A program made the position numbers and the translations under genes. 64,000 nt of DNA from NCBI GenBank assembly GCA_016185705.1, contig JACPMZ010000007.1, forward strand, positions 107,157-171,156, written 5' to 3'. Position 1 is the first letter of the stretch. The number at the start of each line of letters is the position of its first letter. Below, one piece after another: positions 7,567-38,792 of the stretch. A model generated the notes under the pieces. It ran no database searches. It worked only from the letters and a program-made list of their open reading frames with translations, and was not told the DNA's origin. Source of the stretch: Candidatus Woesearchaeota archaeon. Lineage in GTDB: Archaea > Nanobdellota > Nanobdellia > Woesearchaeales > UBA10216.

Positions 7567-8085
7567 CTAAGGCAACCTGTCCAGCTGCCTCATCATGTAA
7601 TCGCCTTCGCTGGAATCCAGTGTTTTGTCTTCGTCGTTAATGGTGAGCGGCTTTTTCTCATTCTTCTGAAACCCGCCGATGTTCCTGGTTTGTTCCTTCA
7701 GCTGCAGCTCAATTGTTGACAAGTCGTCTTCTGACAAGCGCTTGGGAGCCCAGTTGAAGCCCATGCCGTCGTTTTCTGAGCGGGGAATAATGTTTATGGC
7801 AAAATGGGCAATTTTTTGGCCTGCTGCCAGGCCGTTTTCAATTATTATGTTTGTGCCGTGCACCCTTAATGTTTCGAAAATAGACGTGGAAACTGCGTTT
7901 GCCACGCTGAAAAGATGCCCGGCAAGAAAATCAGGAACCTGCTCCAGAATGGTCAGGTGGTCCTTGGGCAGCACCAGAACATGCCCGAGGCTGGCCGGCT
8001 CAGGGCTCAGAGCAACCACTACCCTGTCGTCCTCGTAAATGTGAGTGCCGCTTTCAGCAATTTCGCAATAATCACACTTTGCCAT
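7567..8085 (-). CDS. HIT-superfamily protein, degenerate histidine triad (AHFAINIIPR)
   Basis: N-terminal CDYCEI and GHVLVLPKDH motifs typical of HIT proteins; triad reduced to a single His. Confidence 0.65.
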   Translation of the reverse strand: MAKCDYCEIAESGTHIYEDDRVVVALSPEPASLGHVLVLPKDHLTILEQVPDFLAGHLFSVANAVSTSIFETLRVHGTNIIIENGLAAGQKIAHFAINIIPRSENDGMGFNWAPKRLSEDDLSTIELQLKEQTRNIGGFQKNEKKPLTINDEDKTLDSSEGDYMMRQLDRLP

Positions 8086-8770
8086 CTGCCAGCACCCCTG
8101 TCAGCGAATCCAAATCAAACGGTCCAGGATTTTCAGCATCGCTGCTGCCTTTTTTCTTTTTCTTCGCAGTTTTTTTCAGTTTATTGGCAGCGGTTTTGGC
8201 AGGTTTGTCAGAAGCTTTCGGCTTCCCGGTTTTTGGTTTCCCGTCTTTTTGTTCCTTGGCTGGATTATCCCCAACCACCTCTGCCTCTGCTGCCAATTTT
8301 TTGGCAACAACTTTTTTCAGAACACCGGCGACAGCATCCATGTCCTTTTTGTCAAAAGGCCGCGAAGGAACAGCCATCCTGATGTTGTCGCTGTCATTCC
8401 TCGGAATTATGTGTATCATGAAATGAGGCGCACGCTGGCCAGCTGCAACTCCGTTTGCGATGAAAATAGTGGTGCCTTTGCACTGCAGCCCCTTAAGCGC
8501 AGCCTGCGAAAGCCCCTTAGTAACCATGAAAAGATGCTCAGCAAGCTCCTCAGGCAGCTGCGGCATCACAGAAAAATGCTCCTTCGGCATCAGCAGAATG
8601 TGCCCCTTAGCAGCAGGGTTGATGTCAAGCACAGCTATTGACTCTTCGTCAGAATAAACCTCCTTCGCAGGAACCCTGCCTGAAGAAATCTGGCAGAAAA
8701 CGCAGTTCTGCTTCTGAAAATCAGCGAGCTCCTCAGGACTCATCTGGGAAAGCTCCTCCTCGGTTACCAT
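8072..8770 (-). CDS. HIT-superfamily protein with Lys-rich C-terminal tail, triad PHFMIHIIPR (middle His absent)
   Basis: CVFCQI, GHILLMPKEH motifs; paralog of the downstream gene; 14-nt overlap. Confidence 0.65.
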   Translation of the reverse strand: MVTEEELSQMSPEELADFQKQNCVFCQISSGRVPAKEVYSDEESIAVLDINPAAKGHILLMPKEHFSVMPQLPEELAEHLFMVTKGLSQAALKGLQCKGTTIFIANGVAAGQRAPHFMIHIIPRNDSDNIRMAVPSRPFDKKDMDAVAGVLKKVVAKKLAAEAEVVGDNPAKEQKDGKPKTGKPKASDKPAKTAANKLKKTAKKKKKGSSDAENPGPFDLDSLTGVLADGKV

Positions 8771-33873: not shown

Positions 33874-35880
33874 TTGTTGTTAAAAATGGCCAAAAAGAAG
33901 AGCAAGGATTACGCTGCTCCTGAGCCGGGCAAAGCAAATGTTCAGGACGAGTTTTCCAGAATTGCTGCGAACCTGCCGAAGGATGCGCAGGCCAAGCTTA
34001 AAGAGATTAAGAAAAGTCTGGACAAGTTCAAGGAGCAGCTTCTGAAGAAGTTTGACAAATACATTATTGGCATTGCATTGCTGCCTCCGAAGCTGAGCGA
34101 GCAGCAGCTTGCAGCTTTGCCGCCGGAGATGCAGATGGCAGCAATGCAGCAGCCGCAGCACGTTTCCCTGCAGCCGCAGATGCCTCAGATGCCTGCAGCT
34201 CCTGTTTCCGGATTACCTACAACAGCTGCGCCTCTGCAAATGCCGGCTCCAGCAGCTCCGCCAAAAGATGCCATTAATATAGTTGTCCTTGTAGATGACT
34301 CAGACAGCAAAAAGATGGCGAAGTTTGAACTGAAGAACAAGCTTACCGCCATAATAATTGAGATTGCGAAGGGCATTGACAAAAAAATAATCCCGCAAAC
34401 CCTTATCCTGTCCGAGCTGTGGCAGAGCTGCTATGATACAAAATATGATTTGCTGAGAATGATCGCCTACTCAGCGCCGTTCTACGATACAGGAATGATT
34501 GCGGCAATAAAAATATCTGAAGTGCACAAGGAAATGGTGCTGAAAAAGTTTGAGAAATACATCGTAAGTTACGTATTGGCAGGCTCGCTGATTCAGGGCA
34601 AGGCAACTGCAAAGTCAGACATTGACGTATTTATCGTAGTGGACGATACTGATGTCAAGCGCATGACGCGCGCTGAGCTCAAGGACAAGCTCCGGGCAAT
34701 AATAATCGGCATGGGCATAGAAGCAGGGGATGCGACAGGCATCAAAAACAAATTAAACGTGCAGGTTTACATTTTAACAGACTTCTGGGACAGCGTAAAG
34801 GAGGCAAACCCGATAATATTTACGTTCTTAAGGGACGGCGTTCCACTGTACGACCGCGGAACGTTCATGCCGTGGAAGCAGCTGCTGCAGATGGGAAGAA
34901 TCAAGCCGAGCAGCGAAGCAATTGATTTGTACATGAGTTCAGGCGACCAGCTGATAAGCAGGGTGAAGTACAAGCTCAAGGAGATTGGCATGGAGGACAC
35001 ATTTTGGGCAATACTGACGCCAACGCAGGCAGCCATAATGCTTTACGGAGTGCCGCCGCCAACTCCGAAAGAAACTCCGGACGTGCTTCGCGATATTTTT
35101 GTAAAAAAGGAAAAGCTGCTGGAGGAAGAATACGTCAAAATACTGGAAAGAAACATCCAGCTTCGCAAGGATTTGGAGCACGGCGACAAAAAAGAGCTGA
35201 CAGGAGCAGAAGCTGATAAGGTGCTGAGCGATTCTGAGAAATACCTGAAGCGGCTCGACAAGCTGTTCAAAGACCTGCAGAAAATAAAGGAGGAGGAAGG
35301 CGTTGTGCAGACCTACGACCGAGTAATAACCGTAATCAGGGACGTGCTTCGGCTGGAAGGAATAGAAAAGGTGAGCGACGTTGAGCTTATAACGATATTC
35401 GAGGACGAGCTCATCAGCAAGGGCAAAATGCCTGCCAAATTCCTGAGGATGCTGAACGGCATACTGAAGGCAAAGCAGGACTACGATGCAGGAAAGCTGA
35501 CGAAAGCAGAGGTGCACAAAATAAAAAAAGACTCGGACGAGATAATCCGCTACTTAATAGAGCACATGCAGCGCAAGCGCGGCAAAGAGCTGGAAAAAGC
35601 AAAGATTCGCGTAAAGCACGGCAACAGGTTCGGAGAAGTTATGCTGATAGGGAGCGACGTGTTCATTATCCACGATGTGGACCATGAAGAAAAAGAAATA
35701 TCGAGAGGCAAGCTCTCTGAGTCTGGCGCAATAACTTCTGTAAAGCGCTCCACCCTCGACGAGCTGGAAAAAGTGCTTGCAAACACAGAAATACCTCCCA
35801 AAGTTTTCATCAAAGAAAAAATATTTGAAGACCTGAAAGCAATCTTTGGGAAGGATGTAGAGATACTTGTAAACAACTAA
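33874..35880 (+). CDS. Large fusion protein: tandem minimal nucleotidyltransferase domains (first degenerate, with Q/P-rich insert) + helical HEPN-like region (R-x4-H)
   Basis: GSLIQGKATAKSDIDVFIVVDD (canonical Pol-beta NTase motif) preceded by a diverged repeat KYIIGIALLPPK...DAINIVVLVDD; LRKDLEHG motif downstream. Confidence 0.6.
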   Translation: MLLKMAKKKSKDYAAPEPGKANVQDEFSRIAANLPKDAQAKLKEIKKSLDKFKEQLLKKFDKYIIGIALLPPKLSEQQLAALPPEMQMAAMQQPQHVSLQPQMPQMPAAPVSGLPTTAAPLQMPAPAAPPKDAINIVVLVDDSDSKKMAKFELKNKLTAIIIEIAKGIDKKIIPQTLILSELWQSCYDTKYDLLRMIAYSAPFYDTGMIAAIKISEVHKEMVLKKFEKYIVSYVLAGSLIQGKATAKSDIDVFIVVDDTDVKRMTRAELKDKLRAIIIGMGIEAGDATGIKNKLNVQVYILTDFWDSVKEANPIIFTFLRDGVPLYDRGTFMPWKQLLQMGRIKPSSEAIDLYMSSGDQLISRVKYKLKEIGMEDTFWAILTPTQAAIMLYGVPPPTPKETPDVLRDIFVKKEKLLEEEYVKILERNIQLRKDLEHGDKKELTGAEADKVLSDSEKYLKRLDKLFKDLQKIKEEEGVVQTYDRVITVIRDVLRLEGIEKVSDVELITIFEDELISKGKMPAKFLRMLNGILKAKQDYDAGKLTKAEVHKIKKDSDEIIRYLIEHMQRKRGKELEKAKIRVKHGNRFGEVMLIGSDVFIIHDVDHEEKEISRGKLSESGAITSVKRSTLDELEKVLANTEIPPKVFIKEKIFEDLKAIFGKDVEILVNN

Positions 35881-36224
35881 ATTTCCAAATCGCTATCCTG
35901 CACGTATTCTTTCCCAAGCTTAATGGAAACTTCCGCTTTCAGCGTTTCCCTGCCGAGATAAGCTGCGTGGTCAAGTCTTGAAACTGCGCCTGATTTCAGG
36001 ATTGCCTGGCATAATTGTTTTGCGCCATCTCCTGCCCACTTCTTCAGAATTACGTTGTTCTGCCTGCAGAGGCCGACTTCTATCCTCTTTGTTTCAGGAT
36101 TTATGCGGATGAGAAAATATCCCTTCGGATCGTAATTAAATTCATCAGCATCATACGCTTTGGCTGCGTCTATTTCCTCCATGCCGCTGCTGAAAGAGAC
36201 TTCCGGTTTTGGTATTTTTGCCAT
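35877..36224 (-). CDS. Hypothetical protein (115 aa)
   Basis: ORF with 4-nt overlap to upstream gene end; GYFLIRINPETKRIEVG motif, family uncertain. Confidence 0.4.
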   Translation of the reverse strand: MAKIPKPEVSFSSGMEEIDAAKAYDADEFNYDPKGYFLIRINPETKRIEVGLCRQNNVILKKWAGDGAKQLCQAILKSGAVSRLDHAAYLGRETLKAEVSIKLGKEYVQDSDLEI

Positions 36225-36341: not shown

Positions 36342-36815
36342 TTAACCCTTAGAACCATAATCCTTGCTTGATGGGCCTGAAACAGAATAATCCTGCTGCC
36401 CCTGCCCTGATGCCGAGTAAGTTTTTGCCGGCGAGCCGTCTGCTTCGTACGCTTTCAGCTGCACGCCTTCCTTAAGGCCTGCAGCTGTTACTGAAAACAG
36501 CTGCCCGCAGCTGCAGCCGGCCATAACCGGCTTCTTTTTTTCTGCAGGTTCGTCCATGCTTTGTTGCCGGGGAGAATCGCTGCTGCTGCTATTCTTATTA
36601 GCATCCTCATTGGAAAAATTAGCAGTAGCTGCGTTGCTCTGAGTTTTCATCTTCCACTCCTGCTCTTCCTCAATTATTCTGCGCTCAAAATCGCTTTCGC
36701 TAATCGGAGCTATGACCACGTCTGTGCCGTCATCATGGTGGTGGCGGGTTTCAATAAGTTTAATGGTATCCTTAAGCTGCTTTTCCCTTATTGCGTCAGA
36801 GATTCCGTCTTTCAT
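36342..36815 (-). CDS. Hypothetical protein with Ser/Gln-rich low-complexity C-terminus
   Basis: Translationally coupled (TAACATG) to upstream zinc-ribbon ORF. Confidence 0.4.
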   Translation of the reverse strand: MKDGISDAIREKQLKDTIKLIETRHHHDDGTDVVIAPISESDFERRIIEEEQEWKMKTQSNAATANFSNEDANKNSSSSDSPRQQSMDEPAEKKKPVMAGCSCGQLFSVTAAGLKEGVQLKAYEADGSPAKTYSASGQGQQDYSVSGPSSKDYGSKG

Positions 36816-36816
36816 G

Positions 36817-37002
36817 TTACAAGTCGCTGCAGTCAGTTTTGAAACCGCAGTTAGGGCAGATGTAAGTGCAGTGCACCCTCTTAATTGTCGTTCCGCACAT
36901 AATGCATTCCTCAGGGCTCACGCTTAAAACATTTTGCACATATAAAGCCAATATGCGGAGTTTTATTAATTTATCGCTGGACCGCTTAAGCACTCGCCGC
37001 AC
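36817..37002 (-). CDS. Zinc-ribbon protein (61 aa, CxxC...CxxC)
   Basis: ECIMCGTTIKRVHCTYICPNCG. Confidence 0.4.
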   Translation of the reverse strand: MRRVLKRSSDKLIKLRILALYVQNVLSVSPEECIMCGTTIKRVHCTYICPNCGFKTDCSDL

Positions 37003-37113
37003 TCCTTATTTTCTCCCTCCCCTGACTTTAGGGGAGAAAATAAAGAGCAATGAAGTGCGTTTTTGGATACGGACAGCGAAAGTTTTATATAAGCTCTTCC
37101 CCCTTTTTGCTGC

Positions 37114-37758
37114 ATGGCTGAAGGTGCGAAAGGATTATTTGCGCGGTTCCGAAAGAAGAAAGAGGAAAAGCCCGCTGATAAAAAAGGGCCAATTGAGATT
37201 CATGAGCCGCACGCACCTGCTTACAGCGAAAGCATTGGCAAGCTGTTCCCTACAAGAATAAAATACCGCGGGCTTTATGACCTGGATGGCCTGTACAGGC
37301 TGATGTCAAACTGGCTGAGGCAGAGGCGCTACCGCGTATATGAAACTCTTTACAAGTCCAAGCCGCCTGAGCTTGAAATAAGGTGGACTGCTGAAAGGGA
37401 AAAGTCAGGGTTTGTGATGGAAGTCATTACAATTTACTACCACAGCTACGGGGAATATGATGTTGACGTTGTAATCAACGGCAGGAAGAAGAAGATGACA
37501 AACGCTAGGATGATTCTGACCTTGGGCGGTGACATAAAGGCGCCTTACGAAGACATATTCGGAAGGCCCCGGTGGACTGCAAACGCAACTGAGCGAAGAC
37601 TGCTAAACCTCTTCCGGAACTGGTTTGTCAAAAGGGATTTGGAATCAGTTTACTGGGATACATTGTATTATGAACTGCAGAAATTCCAGGGAGCCATAAA
37701 GGATTTCCTCAGAATGGAAGCAAAAGGAAACATTTACGAATCCAAGCCGAGTGAATAA
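37114..37758 (+). CDS. Hypothetical protein, paralog 1 of a tandem pair
   Basis: Shares Y.GL....L..L...WL...., KK(M/I)...R / G.V.M motifs with downstream gene. Confidence 0.5.
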   Translation: MAEGAKGLFARFRKKKEEKPADKKGPIEIHEPHAPAYSESIGKLFPTRIKYRGLYDLDGLYRLMSNWLRQRRYRVYETLYKSKPPELEIRWTAEREKSGFVMEVITIYYHSYGEYDVDVVINGRKKKMTNARMILTLGGDIKAPYEDIFGRPRWTANATERRLLNLFRNWFVKRDLESVYWDTLYYELQKFQGAIKDFLRMEAKGNIYESKPSE

Positions 37759-37760
37759 AA

Positions 37761-38300
37761 ATGTCGGAAAGAAGATTGGTTGTGGACCACATGCGCCTGA
37801 AGTACGAAGGGCTGTTCAGCGCATTCGAGCTGTACAAACTTATTGATAACTGGCTGAGGGAGAAAGCGTTTGACAGGAGAGAGCTGCGAAACGAGGAGCA
37901 TGTGCGTCCTGATGGAAAATACGTTGAGCTTGTGCTGATGCCGTGGAAAAAGATAACTGACTACGCACGCCACGTAATACGGCTGGAGATAAGGATGCAT
38001 AAGCTGAAGGAAGTCGTGGTTGAGAAAGACGGCCAGCGCATGAAAATGAACCAGGGCAGGGTGGACATGATAATAGATGCGTACCTTGATACGGATTATG
38101 AGGACCGGTGGGAGCAGAAGCCGTTTTACTTCTTCATGCGCACGCTGTTTGACAAATTCATATACCGGACGTACTCAACCCAGTTTGAAGAATTGCTTGT
38201 GGAGAATGTTCATCAGCTGCACACAGCCATCAAGTCGTTTCTGAACCTGTACAAATACGAGTTTGAGCCGATGACATTGCCTGAAATGACTAAGCTGTGA
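37761..38300 (+). CDS. Hypothetical protein, paralog 2 of tandem pair
   Basis: 2-nt spacing from paralog 1; homologous core. Confidence 0.5.
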   Translation: MSERRLVVDHMRLKYEGLFSAFELYKLIDNWLREKAFDRRELRNEEHVRPDGKYVELVLMPWKKITDYARHVIRLEIRMHKLKEVVVEKDGQRMKMNQGRVDMIIDAYLDTDYEDRWEQKPFYFFMRTLFDKFIYRTYSTQFEELLVENVHQLHTAIKSFLNLYKYEFEPMTLPEMTKL

Positions 38301-38472
38301 TTGTTTTTTCTATTGCATGTCAGTAGGGCAATGCTGTTCTTAACAGCAACGGCTTTGCAAGCAGAGGGGAAGCAAAAAGAAATCTGGAGATATTTAAAAT
38401 GCTGCACAAGTTGGCGTAAGAATGCGGGCAGCGGAAATCCGATGGTTTCCTGGTCTGCATTTAGTTCGTAAA

Positions 38473-38569
38473 TGCGGGGGACGTGATTCGAACACGCGCA
38501 ACCACTAAGGTACAGGATTGCTTCTGAAACTTAAGTCCTGCGCTTTTGACCAGACTCAGCCACCCCCGC
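38473..38569 (-). tRNA. tRNA-Leu (anticodon UAA) with putative 11-nt intron at canonical 37/38 position
   Basis: 7-bp acceptor GCGGGGG/CCCCCGC, 3-bp D-stem, anticodon stem CAGGA/TCCTG, long variable arm, T-arm GCGTG-TTCGAAT-CACGT. Confidence 0.6.
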
Positions 38570-38792
38570 ATAGCGGCATTGCTTCAGGCATTGTTTATAA
38601 ATTTTTGTGGTGTGTGAAGTCAGCTCCTCAAGTATCTGCCTTTATCCTGCCAACTCAAATTCCAATCCCCCAACTCAATTTCACGCTGCGCTGCTTTTTT
38701 TCCCTCCCCTAAAATTTAAGGGGAGGAAAAAAAGCAGCGGGGACCCTTACATTTGCGAAAGTCTAATAAGCCAGTGCAGTAATTGTGTGTGA

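What the first reader, a model, noticed from the sequence alone, without database searches (positions are those of the whole stretch)
37114..38300. Tandem pair of paralogous proteins of unknown family
The adjacent genes (214 and 179 aa, 2-nt spacing) share a collinear core (Y.GL....L..L...WL; V..P.....E; KKM / RMKMN ... FL). They follow a zinc-ribbon/low-complexity operon and precede a tRNA-Leu. I recognise no domain. Tandem paralogs often act as heteromers.
Basis: seen in the sequence. Interest (0 to 1): 0.5.

Follow-up and report, generated by a model that had tools for sequence, protein, structure and literature searches.

The report
Conserved tandem paralog operon in Woesearchaeota
Two adjacent genes in this DPANN (Woesearchaeota) archaeal genome are real, ancient paralogs of an uncharacterised protein family. 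They are kept side by side in almost every related genome and probably work together as a complex, but their function is still only inferred.

Summary
ORF A (37114-37758, 214 aa) and ORF B (37761-38300, 179 aa) are collinear paralogs (BLASTP 25% identity over 158 aa, E=1e-9; profile-profile E=9e-14).

- **Host and spread:** the window is from a Candidatus Woesearchaeota archaeon. The family occurs in at least 246 species genomes and 1777 50%-identity clusters. Every named source is Woesearchaeota or Nanoarchaeota, and none is viral.
- **Gene order:** A sits directly upstream of B in 79 of 80 informative loci (median gap 2 nt). In 30 loci a third paralog, C, precedes A.
- **Transcription unit:** a conserved BRE/TATA box lies 30-31 nt before the first ATG in 56 of 76 loci, so (C-)A-B is a self-contained, leaderless operon.

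My best reading is inferred, not shown: an obligate hetero-oligomer that binds an anionic ligand, most likely RNA or a nucleotide. The hints are these:
- a basic hairpin tip conserved in all three paralogs
- linkage to a large Pol-beta nucleotidyltransferase in 28 of 80 loci
- B::NUDIX-like fusions next to aCPSF1 in divergent relatives

It is a new, uncharacterised family of a known fold class, of moderate interest.

The parts
37077..37092 (+). Archaeal promoter: BRE-like CGAAAG (37077-37082) followed by the TATA box TTTTATATAA. The core TTTATATA at 37084-37091 starts 30 nt before the ATG of A, which implies a leaderless or near-leaderless mRNA.
   Evidence: Sequence read. The same CGAAAnnTTTATAAA element starts at -30/-31 from the first ATG of the cluster in 56 of 76 related loci. 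The promoter function is inferred from the archaeal consensus and has not been measured.
37114..37758 (+). Gene A, 214 aa. It has a disordered N-terminal extension (about residues 1-39) followed by a beta-alpha-beta4-alpha core (about residues 40-200). It is basic (pI 9.6) and rich in aromatic residues.
   Evidence: ORF. 100% identical to NCBI HYX10_03560, a hypothetical protein of a Ca. Woesearchaeota archaeon. AF2 model pLDDT 76. Composition.
37132..37161 (+). Short conserved motif in A's N-terminal extension: G7-L-F-A-R-F-R-K-K-K16 (family consensus GLxxLFxxKK). The extension is present only in the window's subclade (A of about 198 aa or more).
   Evidence: Alignment A2. The resemblance to the archaeal stalk aP1 C-terminal L-x-x-L-F-G motif (PMC4267659) is an unverified lead.
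37761..38300 (+). Gene B, 179 aa, the most conserved member of the family. Topology: beta1 (2-19), alpha1 (21-34), a four- to five-stranded antiparallel sheet with a long hairpin (69-89 / 92-112), and a long C-terminal helix (121-168). It starts 2 nt after A's stop codon.
   Evidence: ORF. 100% identical to HYX10_03565. AF2 model pLDDT 83.6, pTM 0.75. Alignment A1 has 62% mean column identity.
38301..38309 (+). T-rich tract TTGTTTTTT immediately after B's TGA stop. It is probably an archaeal oligo-T terminator that closes the bicistronic unit.
   Evidence: Sequence read. The terminator role is inferred from general knowledge of archaeal oligo-T termination.
33886..35880 (+). Context gene: a large (about 665 aa) Pol-beta-type nucleotidyltransferase with a HEPN-like helical region. 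It is a separate transcription unit, but it lies upstream on the same strand in 28 of 80 related loci.
   Evidence: Pfam Polbeta/NTP_transf_2 at residues 223-276. Clustering of neighbours. 61% mean column identity across 21 species. Weak PDB profile hits to the DrrA NTase domain and to AF0298 UPF0332. Not homologous to A, B or C.
38472..38570 (-). tRNA-Leu(TAA), convergent with B. It is a neighbour and not part of the operon.
   Evidence: ARAGORN; Rfam RF00005, 48.9 bits.

Best explanation
A and B are subunits of one lineage-specific housekeeping complex of Woesearchaeota. They descend from an ancient duplication; a third paralog, C, is retained next to them in about a third of lineages. They are transcribed together from their own BRE/TATA promoter as a leaderless bicistronic mRNA, and B's translation is coupled to A's. 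Each protein is a single TBP-like/KA1-like beta-alpha-beta4-alpha domain with three notable features: the open face of the sheet is polar, a long beta-hairpin carries a conserved basic tip (G-K-x-K), and the C-terminal helix is rich in aromatic residues. I propose that the paralogs assemble into a hetero-oligomer (A-B, or C-A-B where C exists) that acts as a non-catalytic binding or adaptor module for an anionic ligand. The most likely ligand is RNA or a nucleotide-bearing RNA end, so the complex would work in RNA processing or translation rather than in defence or metabolism. What is shown: paralogy, near-universal adjacency and order, the autonomous operon, the fold class, and the restriction to Woesearchaeota/Nanoarchaeota. 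What is inferred: physical association, ligand type, and cellular process.
For: - **Paralogy:** BLASTP E=1e-9. hhalign gives A-B 9e-14, C-B 2.6e-18 and C-A 8e-17.
- **Fixed order:** A lies directly upstream of B in 79/80 informative species loci. The median gap is 2 nt and many junctions overlap by 1 or 4 nt.
- **Own promoter:** a conserved BRE/TATA box starts at -30/-31 from the first ATG in 56/76 loci, and a T-tract follows B.
- **Diverged subunits:** A and B each keep their own, different invariant residues. B has PWKK, LDTDYE.RWE.KP and FDKF.Y; A has YKSKPPELE, AER and KKKM.NAR. This is the pattern expected of non-interchangeable subunits.
- **Cellular and vertically inherited:** at least 246 species genomes, all Woesearchaeota/Nanoarchaeota. 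There are 1777 clusters, no viral contigs and no PADLOC hits.
- **Conserved charged residues:** positions kept in all three paralogs include the hairpin tip G91-x-K93-x-K95, plus E41, K63 and K158. Reading the sequence directly, the alternate residues of strand 69-89 that face away from the core are R70, R74, E76, R78 and H80.
- **RNA/nucleotide-flavoured context:** a Pol-beta NTase lies upstream in 28 loci. Other neighbours are a YGR210/YchF-like GTPase (22 loci), HisRS, TruD, Adk and a ribosomal-protein operon.
- **Fusions in divergent relatives:** B is fused to a NUDIX-like domain and sits directly after aCPSF1 on the same strand.
Against: - No direct evidence of A-B contact. No multimer prediction could be run, and there are too few sequences for coupling analysis.
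- Neighbourhood evidence is weak in reduced DPANN genomes, where a large share of genes are informational anyway.
- The NTase is a separate transcription unit. It is never found next to triplet (C-A-B) loci, so its linkage may simply be inherited synteny.
- B is roughly neutral (pI about 7-7.8) and C about 7.1. Only A is clearly basic.
- The NUDIX-like domain matches fall below Pfam's thresholds and its Nudix box is degenerate.
Confidence: 0.4

Rival explanations
1. The proteins are lipid or hydrophobic-ligand carriers of the helix-grip (StART/SRPBCC/Bet v 1-like) type. The aromatic-rich C-terminal helix and the sheet would enclose a cavity, for example to acquire or shuttle host-derived lipids, which DPANN archaea are generally thought unable to make themselves.
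Against: Foldseek TM-scores are only 0.2-0.3, and no SRPBCC/START Pfam model matches even at E<=1. The topology has four to five strands and one N-terminal helix, not the beta-alpha-alpha-beta6-alpha of true helix-grip proteins. Lipid carriers usually act as monomers and have no need for two or three fixed paralogs. The conserved positions shared by all three paralogs are mostly charged (E41, K63, K93, K95, D112, K158). There is no membrane or lipid-metabolism gene linkage.
Confidence: 0.12
2. The pair forms a peripheral membrane or protein scaffold. KA1-like domains would bind acidic phospholipids, and A's N-terminal GLxxLF-KKK segment would act as an amphipathic membrane or partner anchor.
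Against: The N-terminal extension exists only in the window's subclade and is absent from most A orthologs (170-182 aa). There is no sequence match to Pfam KA1. KA1 similarity is at fold level only, and no membrane-related neighbours are conserved.
Confidence: 0.1
3. The pair is a toxin-antitoxin or other defence or mobile two-gene module in which one paralog neutralises the other, as VapW does for VapD.
For: The B-family profile gives a 39-residue local match to the VapW antitoxin (9kan_B, E=0.002). VapW is itself an inactivated paralog of its toxin (PMC11980593). The genes are small, adjacent and overlapping. An MNT-like NTase lies nearby.
Against: VapW/VapD have a ferredoxin-like beta-alpha-beta-beta-alpha-beta fold, which differs in topology from these models. 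The match covers only one beta-alpha unit. The family shows near-universal, syntenic, apparently vertical conservation with B 45-88% identical across 80 species. There are no PADLOC hits and no viral contigs. The neighbours are housekeeping genes.
Confidence: 0.02
4. The similarity is due to chance or composition, or one of the ORFs is not a real gene.
For: Pairwise identity is only 25% and both proteins are rich in K, E and aromatic residues.
Against: E=1e-9 with compositional adjustment and profile-profile E=9e-14. The predicted topologies are identical. Both ORFs are intact and conserved in dozens of species.
Confidence: 0.01

Closest known systems
KA1 (kinase-associated 1) domains, and the related KA-1/VCR RNA-binding domains of METTL16 and TUT1
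   Different: There is no sequence similarity (6-11% identity in the structural alignments) and no Pfam KA1 hit. A and B are about 170 aa against about 100 aa for KA1, with an extra strand, a roughly 20-residue hairpin and a 47-residue C-terminal helix. They are stand-alone proteins in two or three paralogous copies, not C-terminal appendages of an enzyme. They are archaeal, whereas KA1 is eukaryotic.
SRPBCC / StART-like / Bet v 1 helix-grip superfamily
   Different: TM-scores are only 0.2-0.3. A and B have fewer strands and a single N-terminal helix. There is no Pfam match, no evidence of a cavity, and the family-wide conserved residues are charged rather than cavity-lining.
Heterodimers of paralogous TBP-like-fold proteins (Mediator Med18/Med20), and the internally duplicated TBP saddle
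VapD-VapW toxin-antitoxin pair (PMC11980593)
   Same: Both are adjacent paralogs, and there is a weak local profile match to VapW (E=0.002, 39 residues).
   Different: VapD/VapW have a different fold topology (ferredoxin-like/Cas2-like). A and B show housekeeping-type distribution and synteny, and they lack the patchy, mobile distribution expected of a TA module.

Membership tests
KA1 domain (Pfam PF02149) | Significant sequence match to the family profile | tested here: not met
   The Pfam-A scan of A and B at E<=1 lists only OrtA (E=0.089) and Gtr1_RagA (E=0.035), both far below their cut-offs. There is no KA1 hit.
KA1 domain (Pfam PF02149) | beta-alpha-beta-beta-beta-alpha fold with both helices on one face of the sheet | tested here: inconclusive
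KA1 domain (Pfam PF02149) | Binding of acidic phospholipids or RNA through a basic surface | not testable with these tools
   Only the conserved basic hairpin tip (G-K-x-K) can be pointed to.
SRPBCC / START / Bet v 1-like | Sequence match to any SRPBCC-clan profile | tested here: not met
   No such Pfam or NCBIfam hit at E<=1 for A or B. There were also no Pfam hits for the 26 C members at E<=0.01.
SRPBCC / START / Bet v 1-like | Helix-grip fold (beta-alpha-alpha-beta6-alpha) enclosing a hydrophobic ligand cavity | tested here: inconclusive
TBP-like fold class (beta-alpha-beta4-alpha, SCOP d.129; definition from my own knowledge) | Secondary-structure order beta-alpha-beta(4)-alpha with an antiparallel sheet covered by helices on one side | tested here: met
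Type II toxin-antitoxin (VapD/VapW) | Ferredoxin-like Cas2/VapD fold and homology across the whole domain | tested here: not met
   Only a 39-residue local match (E=0.002). The VapW fold is described as beta1-alpha1-beta2-beta3-alpha2-beta4, against beta-alpha-beta4-alpha here.
Type II toxin-antitoxin (VapD/VapW) | Patchy, mobile distribution typical of TA or defence modules | tested here: not met
   The genes are syntenic in 79/80 species loci with housekeeping neighbours. There are no PADLOC hits and no relatives in viral contigs.
NUDIX hydrolases (for the fused relatives P0255/P0286 only) | Nudix box GX5EX7REUXEEXGU and a Pfam NUDIX match above threshold | tested here: not met
   NUDIX E=0.047 and NUDIX_4 E=0.0022, both below the gathering scores. 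PDB Ap4A hydrolase 5cfi E=0.0012. By direct reading, the box reads ADLQEETGI in P0255 and RQLKKVGI in P0286, so it is degenerate. The domain is NUDIX-like in fold and probably not catalytic. The window's own B has no such domain.

The most novel reading that the evidence does not exclude
A, B and (where present) C form a Woesearchaeota-specific RNA-binding hetero-oligomer built from KA1/TBP-like domains. It would act as the substrate-recognition partner of RNA-end enzymes: the strongly conserved Pol-beta NTase-HEPN protein encoded upstream in many genomes, aCPSF1 and the NUDIX-like domain in divergent relatives, or the ribosome and translational GTPases through A's stalk-like GLxxLF motif. That would make it a previously unknown, lineage-specific component of archaeal RNA processing or translation.
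Probability: 0.15. Interest if true: 0.7.

Novelty: new variant of a known kind. Interest (0 to 1): 0.42.

Why it matters
Woesearchaeota and other DPANN archaea have tiny genomes in which a large share of the conserved genes have no assigned function. This operon is one of those genes that is kept almost everywhere in the group: B is 45-88% identical across 80 species, and the gene order, promoter and spacing are all fixed. It is therefore likely to do something central to the biology of the lineage.

This work turns two 'hypothetical proteins' into a concrete, testable target, by defining:
- a three-member paralog family
- a conserved leaderless operon
- a TBP/KA1-like fold with a basic hairpin
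- recurrent links to a nucleotidyltransferase, to aCPSF1 and to a NUDIX-like domain

If the complex proves to be an RNA-processing or ribosome-associated factor, it would be a new lineage-specific part of the archaeal information-processing machinery. If it proves to bind lipid, it would bear on how DPANN archaea obtain membranes. As things stand, it is a well-documented conserved family of unknown function, not a surprise.

Tried and rejected
- **Curated libraries:** Pfam, NCBIfam, PADLOC and PHROGs scans of A and B gave nothing significant. A Pfam scan of all 26 C members gave nothing.
- **PDB by sequence:** single-sequence searches gave 0 hits. Profile searches gave only VapW (E=0.002, 39 residues) and glypican or L22 noise. 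I read the VapW paper and rejected homology because the fold topology and the distribution both differ.
- **NTase carrying a hidden C-like domain:** I tested whether this could explain why NTase and C never co-occur. hhalign of A, B and C against the NTase alignment gave probabilities below 1%, so I rejected it.
- **A third paralog in this genome:** there is none in the 64-kb window in any frame. No C-family hit carries this MAG's HYX10 locus-tag prefix. This is inconclusive for the rest of the genome.
- **Viral or mobile origin:** no relatives in IMG/VR.
- **Identity of the NTase:** only weak PDB profile hits, to the DrrA NTase domain and to a UPF0332/HEPN protein. It remains unresolved.
- **Literature:** general papers on DPANN hypothetical families exist (for example PMC9258230 and PMC8204110, listed), but I found nothing that names this family.
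- **A-B complex model:** both structure-prediction jobs went on the monomers, so no complex could be modelled.

Full report
**1. Checking the observation**

The two ORFs are present exactly as reported. A is 37114-37758 (+, 214 aa) and B is 37761-38300 (+, 179 aa). The junction reads TAA-AA-ATG.

BLASTP of A against B gives one collinear alignment of 158 residues. It has 25% identity, 44% positives and E=1e-9 for the single comparison, with compositional adjustment. Profile-profile comparison of the two family alignments gives 98.1% probability and E=9.1e-14. Paralogy is therefore real.

The described surroundings are also correct:
- a 60-aa Zn-ribbon ORF (36817-37002) and a low-complexity ORF (36342-36815), both on the minus strand
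- a convergent tRNA-Leu(TAA) at 38472-38570

**2. Origin and spread**

Both proteins are 100% identical to hypothetical proteins HYX10_03560 and HYX10_03565 of a Candidatus Woesearchaeota archaeon.

- B has 133 close homologs and A has 34. All are unnamed or 'hypothetical', and every named source is Woesearchaeota, Nanoarchaeota or Nanoarchaeia.
- A profile of the B family finds 1777 50%-identity clusters at E<=1e-3 among 1.84 billion representatives, and 1055 at E<=1e-10.
- A scan of one genome per GTDB species finds relatives in 246 species genomes. Those labelled 'uncultured Methanosarcinales' appear to me to be mislabelled MAGs, judging by their sequence neighbours.
- No relative was found in IMG/VR viral contigs.

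**3. Gene order and a third paralog**

I called ORFs in 80 species loci and scored them with HMMs of the A and B families.

- An A-type gene lies immediately upstream of B, on the same strand, in 79 of 80 loci that have enough upstream DNA. L024 has a non-ATG start. L037 is the only exception.
- The median A-B gap is 2 nt, and many junctions overlap by 1 or 4 nt.
- In 30 loci a third, more divergent paralog (C, about 190-215 aa) lies just upstream of A, giving C-A-B. In two more loci C is about 2 kb away.
- hhalign confirms three-way homology: C-B E=2.6e-18 and C-A E=8e-17.
- The window holds only A and B in all six frames. No C-family protein with this MAG's locus-tag prefix was retrieved.
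- On a neighbour-joining tree of B, triplet loci form one large clade. The window belongs to a subclade in which A has gained an N-terminal extension of about 40 residues.

**4. Transcription unit**

In the window, a BRE-like CGAAAG and the TATA box TTTATATA (37084-37091) lie 30 nt before A's ATG. A T-tract, TTGTTTTTT, follows B's stop codon.

Across 76 loci, a TATA-like element starts at -30 or -31 from the ATG of the first gene of the cluster in 56 cases. That first gene is A in pair loci and C in triplet loci. The element usually appears as CGAAAnnTTTATAAA.

By the usual archaeal geometry (my own knowledge), this places the transcription start at or next to the ATG. So (C-)A-B is a self-contained, leaderless operon, and the downstream genes are translationally coupled. 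The minus-strand Zn-ribbon and low-complexity genes, and the upstream NTase, are separate units.

**5. What the proteins look like**

There is no significant hit in any curated library (details and call numbers are in the tried-and-rejected section).

AlphaFold2 with the family alignments gives confident models:
- B: pLDDT 83.6, pTM 0.75
- A: pLDDT 76, with residues 1-39 and the last 12 residues disordered

Both share one topology: beta1, alpha1, four to five antiparallel strands including a very long hairpin (B 69-89 / 92-112), then a C-terminal helix of about 47 residues. This is the beta-alpha-beta4-alpha 'TBP-like' fold class.

Structure searches give only fold-class matches:
- Foldseek against the PDB gives TM-scores of only 0.2-0.3.

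So this is a new sequence family within a common fold class, with no close structural relative in the PDB.

Composition is unusual:
- 14-17% aromatic residues, against 9% for other window ORFs
- A is basic (pI 9.6 here, family median 8.9)
- B is about neutral

Positions conserved in all three paralogs are F19, L24, Y25, W31, E41, K63, Y68, the hairpin tip G91-x-K93-x-K95, D112-Y113, K158 and L163, in B numbering. Beyond these shared positions, A and B each have their own invariant motifs. That is what I would expect of specialised, non-interchangeable subunits. Reading the sequence directly, the residues of strand 69-89 that point away from the hydrophobic core are R70, R74, E76, R78 and H80. 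The open face of the sheet is therefore polar and charged, not greasy.

**6. Context**

Clustering the neighbours gives two recurrent contexts.

- **Pair loci.** In 28 loci, a Pol-beta nucleotidyltransferase of 630-715 aa lies upstream on the same strand. Of the 80 loci, 21 also carry a CBS + Zn-ribbon (DUF7573) gene, in 20 of them just upstream of A on the same strand. This is the window's 33886-35880 gene. It is very well conserved (61% mean column identity over 21 species). Its only weak profile hits are to the DrrA NTase domain and to a UPF0332/HEPN protein.
- **Triplet loci.** In 22 loci, a divergently transcribed YGR210/YchF-like Obg GTPase lies upstream. HisRS, adenylate kinase and TruD are often nearby.

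One further locus abuts the S13-S4-S11-RpoD-L13-S9-RpoN operon. The NTase and C never occur in the same locus. The NTase is not homologous to A, B or C.

Two divergent relatives (P0255, P0286) carry the B domain fused to a C-terminal NUDIX-like domain:
- Pfam NUDIX_4 E=0.002 and NUDIX E=0.047
- PDB Ap4A hydrolase E=0.0012
- a degenerate Nudix box

In both cases the order on one strand is proteasome subunit, aCPSF1 (KH/beta-CASP), a 166-aa paralog, then B::NUDIX-like.

**7. Interpretation**

Shown:
- true paralogs
- an order-wide, vertically inherited, autonomous operon with fixed gene order
- a TBP/KA1-like fold
- no link to viruses or known defence systems

Inferred, in decreasing order of confidence:
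1. A and B (and C) associate into a hetero-oligomer (about 0.6).
2. The complex is a binding or adaptor module and not an enzyme.
3. The ligand is anionic, most likely RNA or a nucleotide-bearing RNA end (about 0.3). The hints are the conserved basic hairpin tip, basic A, KA-1-type structural neighbours, NTase linkage, the NUDIX-like fusion, aCPSF1 adjacency and translation-related neighbours.

These contextual hints are individually weak. Reduced DPANN genomes are dominated by informational genes, and the NTase is a separate transcript. Lipid-carrier and membrane-scaffold readings remain open (about 0.1 each). A toxin-antitoxin reading is essentially excluded by the distribution.

**8. Novelty and score**

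The family matches no curated family and no solved structure beyond fold class. I found no paper that describes it; one search lists only general surveys of DPANN hypothetical families.

It is best described as a new family, and a new variant, within the known TBP-like/KA1-like fold class, organised as tandem paralogs. For a specialist this is a solid but unsurprising 'conserved hypothetical' of DPANN archaea. Its value is as a well-defined target. Interest: 0.42.

Noticed in passing
window 33886-35880 (+): A large (about 665 aa) Pol-beta-type nucleotidyltransferase. By direct reading it has an apparent internal duplication: a degenerate first NTase-like segment around residues 135-165 and a canonical GS...DxD segment at 233-256. 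It also has a HEPN/UPF0332-like helical region and a PQ-rich low-complexity insert. It is very well conserved across Woesearchaeota (61% mean column identity, many invariant residues), yet matches no characterised family beyond the minimal NTase domain.
   Followed up: partly
L085 2742-4225 and L087 5508-6969: Divergent relatives in which the B-type domain is fused to a C-terminal NUDIX-like domain with a degenerate Nudix box. A 166-aa paralog precedes the fusion, and proteasome and aCPSF1 (KH/beta-CASP) genes lie just before that on the same strand.
   Followed up: partly
window 37132-37161 (A residues 7-16): The conserved GLxxLF-KKK motif in A's clade-specific N-terminal extension resembles the archaeal ribosomal stalk aP1 C-terminal L-x-x-L-F-G motif, which binds aEF1A/aEF2 (PMC4267659). 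Some orthologs read GGLAGLFG or GGLANLFG. Orthologs also carry variable His/Gly/Asn-rich inserts before it.
   Followed up: no
window 36342-36815 (-): A low-complexity protein (157 aa) with a CxCG motif. It is conserved at the same position, between the NTase and A, in 11 related loci, and it has no family match.
   Followed up: no
window 36817-37002 (-) and, for example, L024 4933-5478: The window's 60-aa Zn-ribbon ORF gives a weak DUF7573 hit. In 20 other species a CBS-pair protein ending in the same DUF7573-type Zn ribbon sits directly upstream of A on the plus strand. The window's small ORF may be a remnant or a rearranged relative of that gene.
   Followed up: no
window 38472-38570 (-): The tRNA-Leu(TAA) is 99 nt long, with the anticodon reported at position 38. 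That is longer than a typical tRNA-Leu and may indicate a short intron or extension. Rfam covers the full tRNA model at 48.9 bits.
   Followed up: partly
window 35877-36224 (-): A small PterinBD-DUF4346 protein (Pfam E=3e-21) is encoded tail-to-tail with the NTase and abuts its stop codon (both ORFs include base 35877-35880).
   Followed up: no
L037 (JASMCJ010000008.1) 8001-8543: The only one of 80 species loci in which B has no A-type or C-type paralog within 8 kb on either side.
   Followed up: partly
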